From the IMG/VR virus record IMGVR_UViG_3300029877_000022, positions 1-16,041 of that record: a stretch of DNA of 16,041 nt. One strand, written 5' to 3'. Under the pieces are notes generated by a model, which was given only the letters and a program-made list of their open reading frames with translations, ran no database searches and was not told the origin of the DNA. Below, one piece after another: positions 9,875-15,945 of the stretch (position 1 is the first letter of the stretch; the number at the start of each line of letters is the position of its first letter). This DNA comes from a virus (lineage: Duplodnaviria; Heunggongvirae; Uroviricota; Caudoviricetes). A program made the translations under genes and the position numbers.

Positions 9875-10567
9875 ATGTTATATGCATTTAAGCTGGGCAG
9901 AAAACTGCGCGGCGAGGAACCTTATTACCCTGAAAAAGGCGGGAAAGGTGGCAGTTCTGATAAAAGCGCAAAGTATGCAGCAGAAGCTCAGAAGTATGCC
10001 GCAGACCTGCAAAATCAGCAGTGGCAGACGATCATGAAAAACCTTGCTCCGTTCACGCCTCTTGCGGAGCAGTATGTTAACCAGCTTCAGAACATTTCCA
10101 GTTTAGAAGGTCAGGGGCAGGCACTTAATCAGTATTACAACTCTCAGCAGTATAAAGACCTTGCAGGTCAGGCTCGTTACCAGAGTCTTGCTGCTGCGGA
10201 GGCGACTGGCGGACTTGGTTCGACAGCTACAAGCAATCAACTGGCCACGATTGCCCCGACTCTCGGTCAGTCGTGGTTGTCGAACCAGATGAGCAACTAC
10301 AACAATCTGGCAAACATTGGCCTTGGTGCGCTGCAAGGTCAGGCGAACGCCGGGCAGACATACGCCAACAACATGAGCAGCATTGCGCAGCAAAGCGCAG
10401 CACTTGCCGCTGCTAACGCCAATAAACCATCAGGCCTTCAGACAGCAATTAGCGGTGGCACGTCTGGTGCGATTGCCGGTGCAGGTCTTGCCAGCCTTTT
10501 GGGAACATCAACGCCTTGGGGCGCTGGCATTGGTGCTGGTATCGGATTGCTTGGCTCGTTGTTTTAA
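9875..10567 (+). CDS. Ejection (internal virion) protein, P22 gp7-like
   Basis: 230-aa ORF (P22 gp7 is about 229 aa) with GGAG RBS. Q/N/A-rich low-complexity body and a Gly-rich hydrophobic C-terminus (GAIAGAGLASLLG...GAGIGAGIGLLGSLF) consistent with a membrane-inserting ejection protein. Syntenic position. Confidence 0.75.
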   Translation: MLYAFKLGRKLRGEEPYYPEKGGKGGSSDKSAKYAAEAQKYAADLQNQQWQTIMKNLAPFTPLAEQYVNQLQNISSLEGQGQALNQYYNSQQYKDLAGQARYQSLAAAEATGGLGSTATSNQLATIAPTLGQSWLSNQMSNYNNLANIGLGALQGQANAGQTYANNMSSIAQQSAALAAANANKPSGLQTAISGGTSGAIAGAGLASLLGTSTPWGAGIGAGIGLLGSLF

Positions 10568-10576
10568 GGGGTAATA

Positions 10577-11872
10577 ATGGCTACTTGGCAAGGATCAAAT
10601 GGCGGATTGTTGGCTGGTATCGGCGGCGTCAACTCAAACGCTCCGAGCGTAAATGACATCGGCAATACGCTTCAGCTTATCAGGCAGAACAATGATATTG
10701 AGCGTTCAGGCGCTAACAATGTTGGGCTGACTGCTTTGCAAGGCCTTTCAGGTATTGCAGGAGTGTTTCAGCAGGAAAAGCAGGCTCAGCGGCAGAAAGA
10801 ATTTCAGCAGGCGTACGCTAATGCTTATACGTCTGGTGATCGCGGTGCTTTGCGTCAGTTGGCTACTCAATATCCAGACCAGATTGAATCCGTTCGTAAA
10901 GGCATGGGATTCATTGATGAAGACCAGCGCAATTCCATCGGTACCTTAGCGGCTGGCGCACGCCTTGCGTCATCGTCTCCAGAAGCAATGCAATCATGGC
11001 TGCAAAACAACGCCAAGGAACTGACTCGCGTCGGTGTTGACCCTAATAACGTTGCTCAGATGTATCAGCAGAATCCTTCAGGATTTGGTGAGTTTGTTGA
11101 TCACCTTGGAATGGCTGCTCTTGGTCCGATTGATTACTTCAATGTTCAGGACAAGATGGCTGGTCGTGAGATTGACCGAGGCAGGCTGGCAGAGACAATC
11201 CGCAGCAATCAGGCAGGAGAAGCACTAACAGCTCGAGGTCAGGACATCCAGATACGTGGACAGAACATCAGCGCACAGAATGCTGCTCTTTCCCGAGAAA
11301 TACAAAGAGCAGAATTACAAGAAAAGGCTCTGGACAGACAGATAGCCAGAGAAAGCAATCAGTTAAAGCTTGAAGAGCTAAAACAGAAACAGGCAGATGT
11401 TCGGCAAAAGGCTGACATAGCCCGCGCTGACAGGCAGGCCGCCGCTCAGGGTGCAGTTGATACGTTCAGCACCGCGCTTGATTCTCTCAACGAGATAGAG
11501 CAAAGCCCCGGCCTTTCAAAAGCAGTAGGAATTCGCTCAGCGTTTCCGACAGTTCCTGGCTCTGATGCGGCTAACTTTGAAGCAAGGCTCGACACCTTTA
11601 AAGCTCAAACATTCCTTCCTATGGTGCAGTCCCTGAAGGGTATGGGCGCTCTTTCAGATGCAGAGGGTAAAAAATTATCCGATGCGGTTGGTGCCCTAAG
11701 CCCCAAAATGAGTGAAAAGGCTTTTCGTGACTCTATCGGAAAGATTAGAAATCAGCTTGAAAGCAAGTTGAGCACTGTTAAAAAACAGTTTGATTATCAG
11801 GAGCCGGTGCAGAATATGCCAGGGCAACAATCTACTACTGGCAGTAACTTTTCTTCGCTATGGGGTGATTAA
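10577..11872 (+). CDS. Ejection (internal virion) protein, P22 gp20-like
   Basis: 431-aa ORF in the syntenic position, with AAGGGG RBS. Contains a long charged coiled-coil segment (IRGQNISAQNAALSREIQRAELQEKALDRQIARESNQLKLEELKQKQADVRQKADIARADRQ). Confidence 0.7.
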   Translation: MATWQGSNGGLLAGIGGVNSNAPSVNDIGNTLQLIRQNNDIERSGANNVGLTALQGLSGIAGVFQQEKQAQRQKEFQQAYANAYTSGDRGALRQLATQYPDQIESVRKGMGFIDEDQRNSIGTLAAGARLASSSPEAMQSWLQNNAKELTRVGVDPNNVAQMYQQNPSGFGEFVDHLGMAALGPIDYFNVQDKMAGREIDRGRLAETIRSNQAGEALTARGQDIQIRGQNISAQNAALSREIQRAELQEKALDRQIARESNQLKLEELKQKQADVRQKADIARADRQAAAQGAVDTFSTALDSLNEIEQSPGLSKAVGIRSAFPTVPGSDAANFEARLDTFKAQTFLPMVQSLKGMGALSDAEGKKLSDAVGALSPKMSEKAFRDSIGKIRNQLESKLSTVKKQFDYQEPVQNMPGQQSTTGSNFSSLWGD

Positions 11873-13869
11873 TGGCTAAAGCATGGAAAGATGTTATCGC
11901 CTCTCCACAGTATCAGGCGTTAGCACCAGAACAAAAAGCGCAGGCTCAGGAGCAATACTTCAATGAAGTCGTTGCCCCGCAAGCCGGAGAAAATGCAGAG
12001 CAGGCTAAGCAAGCTTTCTATGCTGCCTATCCATTGCCATCTGTGCAGCCAGTGGAGACACAACAACCAGTATCACAGCAACAACCACAGCAAAGTGGAT
12101 TTATGTCGGATCTTGGTGAAGCCGTGAAAGAAACTGGTCGCGGACTGGTGCAGGCTGGCGTGAACGTGGCAAACATACCTGCATCAGTTGCCGATGCTGT
12201 AACAAGCGCGGCGGCTTGGGCTGGCGGTAAACTCGGAATTGGCGATGGGACATATCACCCAGCGCCACGAGTAACAACGCAGGGATTAGAGCAGGACTTT
12301 GGCCTTCAGCAAGGCGCGCTGACTCCACAAACTACAGAGGGCAGGGTATTTGCTGAGGCATTGCCTTACCTCACTCCTGCTGGCATTGAGAGAGCGGCAA
12401 CACAGGCACCAACACTCGCTGGTAGAATCGCTCAGGGTGCAACTCGCCTTCTCGCTGAAAACGCAGTCGGGTCACTTGCTGCAAATAGTGCGAAAGATGA
12501 TGCGGAAGCACTCGCTACCGATTTAGGCATTGGCGTTCTGGCTGGCGGCGCTATTAACGCTGCCGGACGTGGATTAGGCGCTGCTTATCGTGGCGTTCGT
12601 GGTGCTATTGCACCAGAAGCGCAGCAAGCTATCAGATTTGCAGAGCGTGAAGGAGTGCCTCTGCACACCACAGACCTGTTACAGCCTAGTTCCCGCGTCG
12701 GAAAAATGGCGCAAACGACAGCAGAAAATATCCCCCTGGCTGGCACAAGCGGAATGAGAGCAACGCAACAGGAAGCGAGAAGCCAGTTGGTTCAGAGATT
12801 TGCTGATAAATTCGGTGAGTATGATCCAGCGGTTGTTATTGACAGCCTTAAAGCGAAAACATCAGGAATTCGTCGCGCTGCAGGAAATCGACTGGAGCAG
12901 GTTCAGAATGCTATGGCGGGAATAAACATTCAGCCTGCAAGAGCAATTCAGCAGATTGATACAGAAATATCTAACCTGCAGAAGCTTGGTAAGGTTGCTG
13001 ATAACGAGACTATTTCAAAACTTCAGTCCTATCGTGATGAGCTTGTTCGCAATGCTGGTCCTGATGGTCCGGTAAATCTGGATTTGAAGCAATTAAGCGA
13101 TCTGCGCAGCCAGTTCAGAATGGACGTGAAGGGTGAGCGACCAGTGTTACCAAACCGTTCCGATGCTGCCATTCAGCGCGTTTACAAGGCAATGACCGAC
13201 GATATCAATGGTGCCATTGGTCAGAATCTTGGCAACGATACTCTCCGTAAATATCAGCAGGCCAATGCCGTCTACGCTGACGAAGCCGCGAAACTAAAGA
13301 ATACCAGGCTGAAGAATGTTCTCATGAAAGGCGATCTGACGCCGGAAGTTGTCAACAACATGCTATTCAGCAAGAACAAATCGGAAATTAAGACGCTGTA
13401 TAACTCAGTTGGTCGTGTTGGCAGGGCGCAAATGCGCAATGGCATCATTGGAAAGGCGATGGAGAAATCTGGCGGATCCCCTGACCAGTTCCTTCGGCAG
13501 CTTAACATCCTGCAAAACCAGACTGGCATCACATTTAAGGGGCAGGACGCTGCTTATCTGAAAGGATTAAAAAACTACCTGCAATCTACGCAGCAGGCTG
13601 CAAAAGCGGCAGTAACAACACCCACAGGGCAGCAAACTATCCCGTTCATTATTGGGTATGGGACGGCAATGAACCCTGCGACAACTGGCGCAGCAGTAAG
13701 CTACGGACTTCTTACTCGCGCCTATGAGAGCGAGCCATTCAGAAATGCAATGCTCAGAATGGCAAACACCCCACGCGGATCAACAGCGTTTGAGAAAGCC
13801 ATGCAGCAGGCACAAAAGGCAATTAACGCTATGACGCAGGGGGCTAAGTCTGATGCGTTGTCAGAATAG
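11872..13869 (+). CDS. Ejection (internal virion) protein, P22 gp16-like
   Basis: 665-aa ORF, last gene of the ejection protein trio. TAATG start/stop overlap with the previous gene. Assignment by synteny and size (P22 gp16 about 609 aa). Q/P-rich N-terminal segment. Confidence 0.7.
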   Translation: MAKAWKDVIASPQYQALAPEQKAQAQEQYFNEVVAPQAGENAEQAKQAFYAAYPLPSVQPVETQQPVSQQQPQQSGFMSDLGEAVKETGRGLVQAGVNVANIPASVADAVTSAAAWAGGKLGIGDGTYHPAPRVTTQGLEQDFGLQQGALTPQTTEGRVFAEALPYLTPAGIERAATQAPTLAGRIAQGATRLLAENAVGSLAANSAKDDAEALATDLGIGVLAGGAINAAGRGLGAAYRGVRGAIAPEAQQAIRFAEREGVPLHTTDLLQPSSRVGKMAQTTAENIPLAGTSGMRATQQEARSQLVQRFADKFGEYDPAVVIDSLKAKTSGIRRAAGNRLEQVQNAMAGINIQPARAIQQIDTEISNLQKLGKVADNETISKLQSYRDELVRNAGPDGPVNLDLKQLSDLRSQFRMDVKGERPVLPNRSDAAIQRVYKAMTDDINGAIGQNLGNDTLRKYQQANAVYADEAAKLKNTRLKNVLMKGDLTPEVVNNMLFSKNKSEIKTLYNSVGRVGRAQMRNGIIGKAMEKSGGSPDQFLRQLNILQNQTGITFKGQDAAYLKGLKNYLQSTQQAAKAAVTTPTGQQTIPFIIGYGTAMNPATTGAAVSYGLLTRAYESEPFRNAMLRMANTPRGSTAFEKAMQQAQKAINAMTQGAKSDALSE

Positions 13870-13962: not shown

Positions 13963-14448
13963 TTATCTGATGTTACTGCTACTGTTGCATGTGACTGTAT
14001 TTCCAAACCCTGAATTGCAGTTTGTGTAAGTTTCAACTCGTGTTGGATAGGGTTGAGTTATAACAGGCTGTCTCGCTTTTTGCTCGATCGCTTGCATTGT
14101 GTTTACAGCCTGATAATTCAATAAAGCCTGCTGGAATGCTTGGCTTTGCGCTATTTGTTGGGCTTGTTCTTGGCTTTGTAGTTGAACATAAAGATTCTGA
14201 AGCTCAAGTCTTGCCTGCGCGTCACTTATCTTGCCATCATCGACACCTTGCCCGAGCATCTTCGCAGCAAGGACATATAACTTAGGTGTTGGTGCTGATG
14301 CCATGCGTGAGTCGTTCTTCACGCTAGCATCAAGGCAATTAGCCATATCGCTAAGCTTTGGATAGCGTTGTTCGCAATTTGCCTGATAGTCGCTAACCTT
14401 TGCGCACCCTGCCAGCAGAAGCGGGATAATTAACAGTGATTTTTTCAT
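13963..14448 (-). CDS. Predicted secreted lipoprotein, function unknown (accessory/moron gene)
   Basis: Minus-strand ORF. I place the start at the ATG at 14446..14448 (MKKSLLIIPLLLAGC) because AAGGAG lies 9 nt upstream and this gives a canonical lipoprotein signal peptide with lipobox LAGC. Mature part has cysteines near both ends and a Q-rich helical middle. No recognisable homologue from memory. Confidence 0.7.
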   Translation of the reverse strand: MKKSLLIIPLLLAGCAKVSDYQANCEQRYPKLSDMANCLDASVKNDSRMASAPTPKLYVLAAKMLGQGVDDGKISDAQARLELQNLYVQLQSQEQAQQIAQSQAFQQALLNYQAVNTMQAIEQKARQPVITQPYPTRVETYTNCNSGFGNTVTCNSSSNIR

Positions 14449-14582
14449 ATGATTAACTCTCCTTATCTTTGCCATCATGGCACTGTTGGGTGTAAATGAG
14501 TTATTAACTCAATCGACAATATCTTCACGAAAATACTTTTTATTATTAAGATCTTTCTGATTCTAACAAAACGGAAAGTAAT

Positions 14583-15002
14583 ATGAAGAGGATTATCGGC
14601 GTCGTTGCTGGCGCTATATTGTTATCTGGGTGCGCAACTATTGTTGGTGATGAAACGCAGCTTGTGCAAGTGAACAGCAATCCTTCTGGCGCGAGCTTTA
14701 AGGTAAAAGATGAATCTGGTGTGATTGTTGCGCAAGGTAAGACTCCACAAGGTGTAACACTCGCCAAGTCAGATGGTAGCTATTTTGGCAAAAAGAGCTA
14801 CCAGATCACTATGGAGAAGGATGGGTACGAACCAGTTACCCTGCCAATCAAAGCCAATGCTAATGGTTGGTATATTGGTGGGAACCTTGTGTTTGGTGGG
14901 TTAATTGGTTGGCTTGCTGTAGATCCATTTAATGGTGGGATGTATACCTTGAAGCCTAAAGAGGCAAATGCATCCCTTATACCGTCCACAAAGCAAGACT
15001 AA
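14583..15002 (+). CDS. Predicted lipoprotein with PEGA-like domain, function unknown (accessory/moron gene)
   Basis: 139-aa ORF with lipoprotein signal MKRIIGVVAGAILLSGC (lipobox LSGC). Middle region NPSGASFKVKD...GKTPQGVTL...YQITMEKDGYEP resembles the PEGA domain pattern. Gly/Trp-rich C-terminal segment GWYIGGNLVFGGLIGWLAVDPFNGGMYTL. Followed by a terminator. Confidence 0.7.
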   Translation: MKRIIGVVAGAILLSGCATIVGDETQLVQVNSNPSGASFKVKDESGVIVAQGKTPQGVTLAKSDGSYFGKKSYQITMEKDGYEPVTLPIKANANGWYIGGNLVFGGLIGWLAVDPFNGGMYTLKPKEANASLIPSTKQD

Positions 15003-15009
15003 TAAATGG

Positions 15010-15033
15010 AACCCACCATCAGGTGGGTTTTTT
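15010..15033 (+). terminator. Rho-independent terminator after the lipoprotein gene, overlapping the mnt stop codon
   Basis: AACCCACC-ATCA-GGTGGGTT hairpin (15010..15029) followed by a T-run to 15033. The poor U-tract on the opposite strand suggests it acts mainly on + strand transcripts. Confidence 0.7.
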
Positions 15034-15270
15034 GTACAAATCCTTCAGCGTATCAAACACCATCTTCTTAACAAGTTCAGACTGCTCATCAGCGATGCGT
15101 TCCGCATCGTCTCGATAGCCTGAAATTTTGGATGGCCTTGATACAGCATCAGTCACTATCTGAACTAATTCTGAATTAAGAGAGCGGCCATTGGATTTGG
15201 CTCGCTGTTTTAGTTTTTCCTTTAATTCGTAAGGTAGCCGCAGATTAAATTGCGGGTCATCTCTTCCCAT
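15019..15270 (-). CDS. mnt: Mnt repressor (ribbon-helix-helix, Arc/MetJ family)
   Basis: 83-aa minus-strand ORF MGRDDPQFNLRLPYELKEKLKQRAKSNGRSLNSELVQIVTDAVSRPSKISGYRDDAERIADEQSELVKKMVFDTLKDLYKKPT. Near-identical in length and sequence to P22 Mnt as I recall it, including the N-terminal beta-strand DNA-reading motif and C-terminal tetramerisation helix. Confidence 0.9.
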   Translation of the reverse strand: MGRDDPQFNLRLPYELKEKLKQRAKSNGRSLNSELVQIVTDAVSRPSKISGYRDDAERIADEQSELVKKMVFDTLKDLYKKPT

Positions 15271-15405: not shown

Positions 15406-15945
15406 ATGACAGACATTACAGCCAATGTTGTAGTGAGTATGCCTTCGCAACTCTTCACTATGGCTCGTTCTTTTAAAGCCGTAGCCAATGGCAAAATTTA
15501 TATCGGTAAAATTGACACTGACCCGGTAAATCCTGAAAACCAGATTCAGGTCTATGTTGAGAACGAAGATGGTTCTCACGTTCCTGTTGCACAGCCAATC
15601 GTCATCAATGCCGCAGGGTATCCAGTATATAACGGACAGATTGCCAAATTCGTTACCGTGCAAGGCCATTCTATGGCTGTTTATGATGCGTATGGTGCAC
15701 AGCAGTTCTATTTTCCTAATGTGCTGAAGTATGACCCGGATCAGTTTAAACAAAAAGTATTATCAAATGATATGCTAAATATGTCTCCTCTTTATTTTGG
15801 AGCTAAGGGGGATGGGATTAGCGATGATACTGAAGCATTTGTCGCGTTGGAAATGGATATAAAAAATAGGGTTATTGATTTAAGTGGAAGAGCATTTTTT
15901 GTTACTAAAAGTTTTATTGGAAATAGCTATATAAATGGTTCTTAG
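15406..15945 (+). pseudogene. Tailspike gene truncated by IS2 insertion; retains the P22-type head-binding domain and the start of a pectate-lyase-like receptor-binding domain
   Basis: N-terminus [59 protein letters not shown]...[15 protein letters not shown]...[10 protein letters not shown] is the conserved tailspike head-binding domain. It is followed by an AT-rich segment encoding [16 protein letters not shown]. The frame ends at a TAG that is the first 3 nt of the IS2 end (15943), so the ORF is 179 codons instead of the 600 to 700 expected. Confidence 0.85.

What the first reader, a model, noticed from the sequence alone, without database searches (positions are those of the whole stretch)
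13963..14448. Uncharacterised Cys- and Gln-rich lipoprotein encoded antisense to the virion genes, in the moron slot between the ejection genes and mnt
This gene is on the minus strand, opposite to the whole structural operon, and has its own strong RBS (AAGGAG). It encodes a canonical lipoprotein (signal MKKSLLIIPLLLAGC) whose mature part has paired cysteines near both ends and a Gln-rich helical middle. In P22 this slot holds superinfection exclusion and immunity-I genes, so a secreted lipoprotein here is a plausible lysogenic conversion or exclusion factor (for example one that blocks DNA entry or alters the cell surface). I cannot assign it to any family from memory, which makes it the most likely undescribed element in the window.
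Basis: partly seen in the sequence, partly recalled or inferred. Interest (0 to 1): 0.7.

Follow-up and report, generated by a model that had tools for sequence, protein, structure and literature searches.

The report
Prophage lipoprotein in the sieA slot
This is a real gene, transcribed in lysogens, for a small periplasmic lipoprotein of untested function that sits in P22-like prophages exactly where phage P22 keeps its superinfection-exclusion gene sieA, so it is probably an alternative way to block related phages.

Summary
Window 13963-14448 (-) encodes a 161-aa lipoprotein precursor with lipobox LLAG|C15, Ala at +2, Cys25/38 and Cys144/154, and a Gln-rich helix. An AAGGAG lies 10 nt before the ATG.

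The gene is under strong purifying selection (dN/dS about 0.05). A 98%-identical copy in prophage Gally of E. coli LF82 is transcribed in the lysogen while the neighbouring late gene 16 stays at background (published RNA-seq).

It has no Pfam, NCBIfam, PADLOC or PDB relative. It belongs to PHROG 6067 (unknown function) and to a wider unnamed lipoprotein family (261 cluster representatives) whose distant members are chromosomal.

In about 100 prophage loci from E. coli to Proteus it always lies directly after ejection gene 16, convergent. It never occurs with SieA, and it does not co-vary with the ejection proteins.

In one prophage class the upstream region is 97.9% identical to P22, through the putative sieA promoter and the Shine-Dalgarno. 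Homology stops a few bases before the start codon, so this is an ORF-for-ORF replacement of sieA.

Best reading (confidence 0.4): an outer-membrane-anchored periplasmic exclusion protein that blocks P22-type DNA delivery. This is untested. A host-fitness envelope factor is the main rival.

The parts
13963..14448 (-). lipoA coding sequence (161 codons plus TAA): lipoprotein precursor
   Evidence: Translation. Conserved start. dN/dS about 0.05. PHROG 6067 full-length match.
14404..14448 (-). Signal peptide, residues 1-15, ending in lipobox L12-A13-G14-C15 (14404-14415). Cys15 is the predicted lipidated first residue of the mature protein, followed by Ala at +2.
   Evidence: Read directly from the sequence. 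C15 is at least 90% conserved and the lipobox is kept in all close homologues. 128 of 144 distant relatives have a lipobox, and none has Asp at +2.
14164..14403 (-). N-terminal helical-bundle domain, residues 16-95, with the invariant pair Cys25/Cys38
   Evidence: AF2 model m79d0e9dddd14 has block-mean pLDDT of about 88-95 over residues 21-100, with helices 18-28, 32-44, 47-50, 53-70 and 76 onward. It is the most conserved part of the family.
14074..14163 (-). Gln-rich continuation of the last helix, residues 96-125. This stalk is longer in the phage-borne subfamily than in chromosomal relatives.
   Evidence: The model shows one helix from 76 to 125. Q is 34% of residues 84-127. Q106, Q107, Q113, T117 and Q119 are at least 90% conserved. 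The linker is much shorter in distant relatives.
13966..14073 (-). Pro-rich linker (126-138) and C-terminal beta-hairpin (139-159) carrying Cys144/Cys154
   Evidence: Strands 139-146 and 152-159, pLDDT about 70-75. C154 is invariant among close homologues. 94 of 144 distant relatives have a C-terminal Cys pair.
14459..14464 (-). Shine-Dalgarno AAGGAG, 10 nt before the ATG. The same SD precedes sieA in P22.
14449..14582 (.). Divergent 134-bp intergenic region between lipoA (-) and lipoB (+). It presumably carries the promoters of both genes in this class of prophage.
   Evidence: Two sigma-70-like matches on the minus strand at 14587-14560 and 14569-14542, not above the shuffle expectation. Both genes are transcribed in the Gally lysogen, which has the same arrangement.
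11872..13869 (+). Gene 16 homologue (ejection protein), the invariable convergent neighbour of lipoA
14583..15002 (+). lipoB, a second and unrelated lipoprotein gene (context, not part of lipoA)
15019..15270 (-). mnt homologue (Arc plus Repressor_Mnt domains), context

Best explanation
lipoA is a prophage-expressed accessory gene.

Predicted pathway (inferred from sequence and established rules, not shown):
- The product is exported by Sec.
- It is lipidated and cleaved at Cys15 by Lgt, LspA and Lnt.
- With Ala at +2, Lol sorts it to the inner leaflet of the outer membrane.
- DsbA staples it with two disulfides, 25-38 and 144-154.

Predicted shape: a compact helical bundle next to the membrane, a long Gln-rich helix and Pro-rich linker projecting into the periplasm, and a small disulfide-closed hairpin at the tip.

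Proposed function (inferred, untested): superinfection exclusion of P22-like phages. [quoted passage not shown] It would be a non-homologous functional replacement of the inner-membrane protein SieA.
For: 1. Same slot. In all 84 loci carrying a lipoA copy at least 90% identical, and in divergent copies (48-74% identity) from Morganella, Providencia, Proteus, Tatumella and other prophage contigs, the gene lies directly after gene 16, convergent, between gene 16 and the tailspike gene. P22 sieA and E. coli HS1 sieA occupy that same place.

2. Exact swap. Locus L053 is 97.9% identical to P22 across mnt, orf59a and the 410-bp spacer, up to and including the AAGGAG. Homology stops 7 nt before the sieA GTG and 11 nt before the lipoA ATG, then resumes in gene 16. 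A shared element of about 30 nt (TCATGGTATCCTGC.CAAAACTAAGGAG) also precedes lipoA in the commonest class and in phage VSe13. In P22, 85 bp upstream plus sieA is sufficient for exclusion (PMC10883804).

3. Never together. No type A or type B SieA homologue occurs in any lipoA locus.

4. Restricted to this phage type. In 50,697 phage records, homologues occur only in five Lederbergvirus genomes. SieA acts only on P22-like phages and is likewise confined to this slot (PMC10883804).

5. Expressed in the lysogen. Gally gene GALLYPH_13 (98% identical) reads 70 normalised counts against a prophage median of 15.6 in LB. It reaches log2 10.3 in macrophages at 1 h, while gene 16 stays at 3.6-4.2 (PMC9928086 S1 Table).

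6. Envelope location. The protein has a lipobox, conserved Cys pairs and no membrane-spanning segment.

7. Functional constraint. dN/dS is about 0.05 over the whole length.
Against: - No phenotype exists for any family member. Nothing here tests exclusion.
- Sharing a slot proves only that the two genes are alternative cassettes in a region known for rapid gene flux (PMC2629481). Other unrelated secreted or membrane proteins sit there too.
- lipoA (96-100% identical) is linked to at least three very different gp16 types and to gp20 alleles of 34-100% identity. It does not track the ejection proteins, and it shows no sign of diversifying selection.
- Distant relatives are ordinary chromosomal lipoproteins of environmental proteobacteria. 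The fold therefore has a non-phage function.
- The strong induction in cell-culture medium and macrophages, shared with lipoB, mnt and the tailspike gene, fits a host-adaptation role as well.
- The LF82 authors did not score the gene as a moron in LB: 4.5-fold over background, below their 5-fold cut-off.
Confidence: 0.4

Rival explanations
1. Host-fitness lysogenic-conversion factor. lipoA would be an outer-membrane lipoprotein that changes envelope properties (stress, serum, antimicrobial-peptide or intracellular survival), in the manner of lambda Bor, with no direct action on phages.
For: - Transcription rises about 16-fold from LB to macrophages at 1 h, and is already raised in samples B1 and B6, taken from their labels to be bacteria alone at 1 h and 6 h.
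- Purifying selection is strong and there is no co-variation with phage ejection proteins.
- Relatives are chromosomal lipoproteins in non-phage contexts.
- A truncated relative persists between dsbB and ycgN beside a phage-type theta gene, possibly kept after prophage decay.
- The gene is common in pathogenic E. coli, including O104:H4, O26 and AIEC LF82.
Against: - A general fitness moron would be expected to move between phage types. This one is found only in P22-like genomes, and only beside gene 16.
- It replaces sieA behind the sieA upstream sequence.
- The macrophage induction covers the whole right end of the prophage, including the tailspike gene, so it is not specific to this gene.
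Confidence: 0.25
2. Exclusion by receptor inactivation. The lipoprotein would bind the periplasmic face of an outer-membrane protein that P22-like phages need after O-antigen binding and lock it in a form unusable for infection, as known for T5 Llp and proposed for Cor. It would not touch the ejection proteins.
For: - It is predicted to be an outer-membrane lipoprotein with Ala at +2.
- Its high conservation despite variable ejection proteins fits a conserved host target.
- The precedent of phage-encoded exclusion lipoproteins comes from my own knowledge of Llp and Cor, not from a test here.
Against: - There is no sequence or fold similarity to Cor. Matches to phrog_1119 and NF047972 cover only the signal peptide and fall below threshold.
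- The tight linkage to gene 16 is not explained.
- Secondary receptors of most P22-like phages are poorly defined.
Confidence: 0.15
3. Hitch-hiking or domesticated housekeeping lipoprotein with no role in phage-host conflict or conversion, kept merely because this slot tolerates insertions.
For: The region is described as the one place in the P22-like late operon that tolerates morons and is in rapid flux (PMC2629481). The wider family is chromosomal.
Against: dN/dS is about 0.05 across alleles that have recombined into many backgrounds. The gene keeps the same position from E. coli to Proteus at 55% identity. It is actively transcribed.
Confidence: 0.08
4. Lytic-cycle function such as a spanin-like lysis component or a virion or assembly factor.
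For: Weak matches to an Rz-like spanin PHROG and a minor tail PHROG (E 0.15 and 0.01).
Against: - Those matches are insignificant and cover the signal peptide or the low-complexity helix.
- The gene is antisense to the late operon and is transcribed in the uninduced lysogen while late genes are silent.
- These phages carry their own Rz lysis cassette elsewhere.
Confidence: 0.03

Closest known systems
P22 SieA (types A, B, C), superinfection exclusion protein of P22-like prophages
   Same: - Same genomic position and orientation, directly after gene 16.
- Same upstream sequence, including the SD, in some prophages.
- Similar size (161 vs 164 aa).
- Confined to P22-like prophages of Enterobacterales.
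- Expressed from the prophage.
- The two are mutually exclusive.
   Different: - No sequence similarity.
- SieA is a multi-pass inner-membrane protein with a cytoplasmic FxRYPxEAxxFNK motif. lipoA has no membrane-spanning segment or motif and is a secreted lipoprotein predicted to go to the outer membrane.
- SieA's exclusion activity is demonstrated. lipoA's is not.
Cor (phi80, N15, HK022) and T5 Llp, phage-encoded outer-membrane lipoproteins that block FhuA-dependent phages
   Same: Small phage-encoded lipoproteins of Gram-negative hosts, made to protect the infected or lysogenic cell. This is a possible mechanistic model (own knowledge).
   Different: - No homology. Matches to Cor models cover only the signal peptide and are far below cut-off.
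- Different phage type, different fold prediction (helical bundle plus stalk), and the target is unknown.
Ltp of Streptococcus phage TP-J34, an exclusion lipoprotein that targets the tape-measure protein
   Same: A membrane-anchored helical lipoprotein outside the cytoplasm that blocks DNA entry by binding an ejected phage protein. This matches the mechanism proposed here (cited as ref. 9 in PMC10883804).
   Different: - Gram-positive host and siphovirus target.
- No sequence match to any PDB chain at a meaningful E-value.
Lambda Bor, a prophage outer-membrane lipoprotein that confers serum resistance
   Same: A prophage-expressed small lipoprotein moron. This is the model for the host-fitness rival. 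Bor of the Perceval prophage is induced in the same LF82 data set.
   Different: No sequence relationship was detected in any library. Bor-type genes occur in several lambdoid phage types, whereas lipoA is tied to the gene 16 flank of P22-like phages.
PHROG 6067 and its wider unnamed lipoprotein family
   Same: lipoA is a full-length member (E 7.5e-109). Distant chromosomal proteins of 125-140 aa share the architecture: lipobox, Q..CE...C helical domain, and a C-terminal TTxC...GNxxxCxxY hairpin.
   Different: The phage-borne subfamily has a stalk about 30 residues longer and Gln-rich, and a fixed prophage position. No member has a known function.

Membership tests
Bacterial lipoprotein (SPase II substrate) | N-terminal signal peptide with a basic n-region, a hydrophobic h-region and a lipobox [LVI][ASTVI][GAS]C | tested here: met
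   MKK / SLLIIPLLL / L-A-G-C15. The feature is conserved in all 31 close homologues, and 128 of 144 distant relatives have a lipobox-like motif. No dedicated predictor such as SignalP or LipoP was available.
Bacterial lipoprotein (SPase II substrate) | Actual lipidation and cleavage, and outer- versus inner-membrane location | not testable with these tools
   Outer-membrane sorting is inferred from Ala at +2 (the Enterobacterales +2 rule, own knowledge). It needs globomycin sensitivity, palmitate labelling and membrane fractionation.
SieA | Sequence similarity to SieA type A or B | tested here: not met
   BLASTP finds no alignment at E <= 100 against P22 SieA. tblastn with P22 and HS1 SieA hits no lipoA locus. 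Type C was not tested because no sequence was in hand.
SieA | Multi-pass inner-membrane topology and the FxRYPxEAxxFNK motif | tested here: not met
   lipoA has no 19-residue window with Kyte-Doolittle score >= 1.6 and no motif. P22 and HS1 SieA have both.
SieA | Located between genes 16 and 9 of a P22-like prophage, next to gene 16 | tested here: met
SieA | Blocks DNA injection by P22-like phages | not testable with these tools
   Needs plating, K+ efflux and lysogenisation assays.
Cor exclusion lipoprotein | Match to the family model above threshold (NF047972 cut-off 31 bits; phrog_1119) | tested here: not met
   lipoA matches phrog_1119 at E 0.061, residues 1-29 only. It has no NF047972 hit.
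PHROG 6067 | Full-length match to the family profile | tested here: met
   E 7.5e-109, residues 1-161 on profile positions 1-161 of 161.
Moron (independently expressed prophage accessory gene) | Transcribed in the lysogen independently of the surrounding operon | tested here: met
   Published RNA-seq of the 98%-identical Gally gene shows 4.5-fold over the prophage median in LB and up to log2 10.3 in macrophages, with the gene 16 neighbour at background. This is literature data for a near-identical copy, not for this window's own host. The promoter is not mapped.
Known anti-phage defence systems (PADLOC) | Match to any defence-protein model | tested here: not met
   0 families at E <= 1.

The most novel reading that the evidence does not exclude
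lipoA would define a new, non-homologous class of superinfection-exclusion protein. It would be an outer-membrane-anchored periplasmic stalk, recruited from a widespread chromosomal lipoprotein family, that stops the P22-type ejection-protein conduit from the outer-membrane side. In E. coli it would be the commonest occupant of the sieA position: 186 genomes, against 35 and 21 for the detectable sieA types A and B.
Probability: 0.35. Interest if true: 0.65.

Novelty: new variant of a known kind. Interest (0 to 1): 0.5.

Why it matters
P22 is the model for how short-tailed phages build a trans-envelope DNA channel from ejected proteins. SieA is so far the only prophage protein known to block that channel, and it acts at the inner membrane.

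A second, unrelated protein in the same genetic slot, anchored in the other membrane, would be an independent probe of the outer-membrane and periplasmic steps of channel assembly. Escape mutants would show which ejection protein or host factor it contacts.

It would also explain what most E. coli P22-like prophages without sieA carry in its place. The gene occurs in about 3% of complete E. coli genomes, including O104:H4, O26 and the Crohn's-associated strain LF82. There it is among the most strongly transcribed genes of prophage Gally inside macrophages, so a host-fitness role would matter as well.

Either way the experiment is simple and the hypothesis is sharp.

Tried and rejected
**Searches that found no relative**
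- Pfam, NCBIfam and PADLOC gave nothing meaningful. The only NCBIfam hit is GspK at 18 bits against a cut-off of 130. That weak similarity probably explains a mis-named Cronobacter homologue.
- A PDB profile search found nothing below E = 2.
- Foldseek against viral models found nothing at E <= 0.001.
- The AFDB library was not available.

**Searches that added little**
- Two of the three word-indexed homology searches (alignments A2 and A3) added almost nothing.
- The genome-contig scan with A2 failed. With A1 it gave only 5 loci.

**Features looked for and not found**
- Co-variation of lipoA with gp16, gp20 or gp7: none.
- An intrinsic terminator after lipoA: none, fold z-score 0.11.
- The promoter scan was not above the shuffle expectation.

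**Readings rejected**
- The 171-aa start.
- A spanin or tail role.
- Cor or SieA membership.
- The plus-strand 62-aa ORF inside the gene, because selection acts on the minus frame.

**Literature**
- Searches by accession numbers and by topic found no paper that studies this protein.
- The library lacks most subscription journals.

Full report
**What the window is.** The window is the virion-assembly half of a P22-like (Lederbergvirus) prophage. It runs through terminase, portal, scaffold, coat, the head-completion genes and the three ejection-protein genes: gp7 at 9875-10567, gp20 at 10577-11872 and gp16 at 11872-13869. A short accessory region follows, and then the start of the tailspike gene at 15406. 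The accessory region is 96-97% identical to phages Gally and vB_EcoP-720R6. The finding's own 486-base gene (13963-14448) is 100% identical to a prophage of E. coli GMF054.

**The observation.**
- AAGGAG lies at 14464-14459, 10 nt before the ATG.
- The N-terminus is a textbook lipoprotein signal: MKK, a ten-residue hydrophobic core, and the lipobox L-A-G-C15.
- The mature protein is 147 aa, 16.2 kDa. It has Cys25/Cys38 near the N-terminus and Cys144/Cys154 near the C-terminus.
- Gln is 13.6% overall and 34% of residues 84-127.
- The mechanical ORF reaches an ATG at 14478. Homologues in other contexts have in-frame stops just upstream of the MKK start, so 14448 is the conserved start.

**It is a real gene.** dN/dS against E. 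coli and Salmonella alleles is 0.05-0.06 at dS 0.25-0.5, in every part of the protein.

**Family.**
- Pfam, NCBIfam, PADLOC and a PDB profile search find nothing meaningful.
- PHROGs places it full-length in phrog_6067, 'unknown function'.
- The word-indexed search finds 91 close homologues, all in Enterobacterales: Escherichia, Citrobacter, Serratia, Cronobacter, Klebsiella aerogenes, Pectobacterium, Yersinia, Tatumella, Morganella and Providencia. They are named 'hypothetical protein' or 'lipoprotein'.
- A full HMM search of 1.84 billion cluster representatives finds 261 at E <= 0.001.
- The distant relatives are mostly 125-140 aa and keep the same plan. They have a lipobox, a helical domain with the motif Q..CE...C, and a C-terminal TTxC...GNxxxCxxY. 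The linker between the two is much shorter.
- C25 and C38 are invariant in 137 sequences.
- Two distant members that could be placed lie in ordinary chromosomal neighbourhoods: one among uvrC, pgsA, EarP and bio genes, the other among rluD, yfiH and phaC. Others lie near mobile or defence-like genes.
- The phage gene therefore belongs to an unnamed lipoprotein family whose ancestral role is not phage-specific.

**Genomic position.** This is the informative part.
- P22 carries sieA directly after gene 16 on the opposite strand, followed by orf59a and mnt. The type B sieA of E. coli HS is in the same place.
- I collected about 100 P22-like loci that carry lipoA, from IMG/VR, GenBank phages, RefSeq E. 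coli and other genomes.
- In all 84 loci with a copy at least 90% identical, lipoA is the gene immediately after gene 16, convergent.
- The same holds for the divergent copies (48-74% identity) in Morganella, Providencia, Proteus phage Brookers, Tatumella and other contigs.
- None of these loci contains a type A or type B SieA homologue.

The upstream neighbour varies among the 84 loci:

| Upstream neighbour of lipoA | Strand relative to lipoA | Distance | Loci |
|---|---|---|---|
| mnt variant | same | 95 bp | 34 |
| P22 orf59a homologue | same | 417 bp | 18 |
| lipoB (this window's class) | divergent | 135 bp | 17 |
| small secreted protein (O104:H4 type) | same | 29 bp | 11 |
| other | - | - | 4 |

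**The swap junction.** In the orf59a class, locus L053 is 97.9% identical to P22 over 1040 bp covering mnt, orf59a and the spacer. Identity runs through the Shine-Dalgarno and ends 7 nt before the sieA GTG and 11 nt before the lipoA ATG. Homology resumes in gene 16. An element of about 30 nt, TCATGGTATCCTGC.CAAAACTAAGGAG, which includes an extended -10-like TGGTATCCT, is shared by P22 sieA, L053, the mnt class and phage VSe13. Leavitt et al. showed that sieA with only 85 bp of upstream DNA, the putative PsieA, suffices for exclusion (PMC10883804). lipoA is thus an ORF-for-ORF replacement of sieA, in many prophages behind the same promoter-proximal sequence. In this window's class only the last 25 nt or so are shared, and a different, divergent intergenic region supplies the promoter. 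Consensus scanning there is not above chance.

**Expression.** Misson et al. (PMC9928086) re-analysed RNA-seq of E. coli LF82, whose prophage Gally has the same lipoA-lipoB-mnt arrangement and a 98%-identical lipoA. Their S1 Table gives these values; apart from the first column they are log2(fpkm+5):

| Gene | LB, normalised counts | Samples B1/B6 (log2) | Macrophage 1 h (log2) | Macrophage 6 h (log2) |
|---|---|---|---|---|
| GALLYPH_13 (lipoA) | 70 (prophage median 15.6, so 4.5-fold) | 7.9-8.2 | 10.3 | 8.5-8.7 |
| gene 16 (neighbour) | background | 3.6-4.2 in every condition | 3.6-4.2 | 3.6-4.2 |

- In LB, lipoA is second only to the C2 repressor within Gally.
- It falls just under the authors' 5-fold moron cut-off, which is why they called Gally moron-free.
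- I read B1 and B6 as bacteria alone at 1 h and 6 h; that comes from the sample labels only.
- lipoB, mnt, the tailspike gene and the next gene rise together with lipoA.

**Frequency.** Megablast counts in 5426 complete E. coli genomes are below. Megablast misses divergent alleles, so these are rough numbers.

| Query | Genomes with a match |
|---|---|
| lipoA | 186 (all chromosomal) |
| P22-type sieA | 35 |
| HS1-type sieA | 21 |
| gp7 marker of this prophage type | 1174 |

**Interpretation.**
- Shown: a lipoprotein precursor gene, under selection, transcribed in lysogens, confined among phages to P22-like genomes, fixed beside gene 16, and a precise alternative to sieA.
- Inferred from established rules: export, lipidation at Cys15, outer-membrane sorting (Ala at +2, never Asp in the family) and periplasmic disulfides.
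- Inferred from context only: the function.

I consider superinfection exclusion of P22-like phages at the DNA-delivery step the most likely role (confidence 0.4). The slot, the regulatory sequence, the phage-type restriction and the mutual exclusivity all parallel SieA. SieA blocks the gp20/gp16 conduit and acts only on P22-like phages.

Against this reading, lipoA does not co-vary with the ejection proteins. Nearly identical lipoA sits next to at least three gp16 types and to gp20 alleles of 34-100% identity. It shows no diversifying selection. It also has chromosomal relatives. These points favour a conserved target, either a host envelope component or a conserved feature of the conduit. 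They keep open a pure host-fitness role (0.25) and a receptor-masking mechanism like Llp or Cor (0.15).

**Novelty.** The gene is catalogued but uncharacterised. I found no paper on it. The SieA paper notes only that 22 of 66 P22-like phages carry sieA and does not say what replaces it. The epsilon34 paper describes the region as an 'ant moron' in rapid flux, with only the P22 genes studied. If the exclusion reading is right, this is a new, non-homologous variant of a known kind of system, and it is readily testable.

Noticed in passing
window 14583-15002 (+): A second, unrelated lipoprotein gene (lipoB; MKRIIGVVAGAILLSGC...) lies divergent from lipoA. It matches phrog_6823 (unknown function) and weakly matches PEGA (E 0.0037, below threshold). 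RefSeq names it 'peptidase associated/transthyretin-like domain-containing protein', and it is the homologue of epsilon34 gene 15. In Gally it is even more strongly induced than lipoA, from log2 4.8-6.2 in LB to 11.0 in macrophages.
   Followed up: partly
window 15019-15270 (-): An mnt homologue is present without arc or ant, so its usual target (Pant) is absent in this class of prophage. In Gally, mnt rises about 40-fold in macrophages and its deletion had no effect on survival. What Mnt controls here is open; it could be the lipoA/lipoB or tailspike transcripts.
   Followed up: no
window 15010-15029: A GC-rich hairpin (AACCCACC TGAT GGTGGGTT) lies between the convergent ends of lipoB and mnt. 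It looks like a terminator for mnt and possibly a bidirectional one.
   Followed up: no
L016 (E. coli GMF054, NZ_CM183924.1 2926961-2939446): A segment 100% identical at protein level to the window's gp20, gp16, lipoA, lipoB, mnt and tailspike start survives in a decayed prophage. The left part of that prophage is cut off by IS911 inside the gp7 gene.
   Followed up: no
L104 8001-8411 (GCA_003312345.1): A 136-aa relative lacking the C-terminal Cys hairpin sits in an enterobacterial chromosome between dsbB and ycgN/ycgM/minCDE. It is next to a phage-type DNA pol III theta (holE-like) gene of the kind found beside the integrase in Morganella and Proteus P22-like prophages. It may be a domesticated prophage remnant.
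   Followed up: partly
L103 1762-4422 (MAG Enterobacteriaceae bran_bin.7): The gene 16 counterpart next to a 48%-identical lipoA is 886 aa and carries an N-terminal SLT lytic-transglycosylase domain (E 8.8e-26). The window's gp16 and the O104:H4 gp16 have no Pfam domain.
   Followed up: partly
L017 6511-6825 (-) and L008 7519-7980 (+): Other prophages place further small envelope proteins between mnt and lipoA. O104:H4-type prophages have a 104-aa protein with a signal peptide. Providencia has a 153-aa protein with an N-terminal membrane anchor. Neither has a Pfam match.
   Followed up: partly
L011 8001-8573, L012 512-1084 (metagenome): A distant family member (P0165, 190 aa) lies directly upstream of a TIR-domain protein and a large nSTAND/WD40 protein, a neighbourhood that looks like a defence island.
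   Followed up: no
P0024 (Cronobacter dublinensis homologue); Gally GALLYPH_13: Two annotation errors in public records. A 73%-identical homologue is named 'general secretion pathway protein GspK', probably from an 18-bit similarity of the Gln-rich helix to NF037980, whose cut-off is 130. The Gally CDS is extended to the upstream ATG, giving 171 aa.
   Followed up: yes
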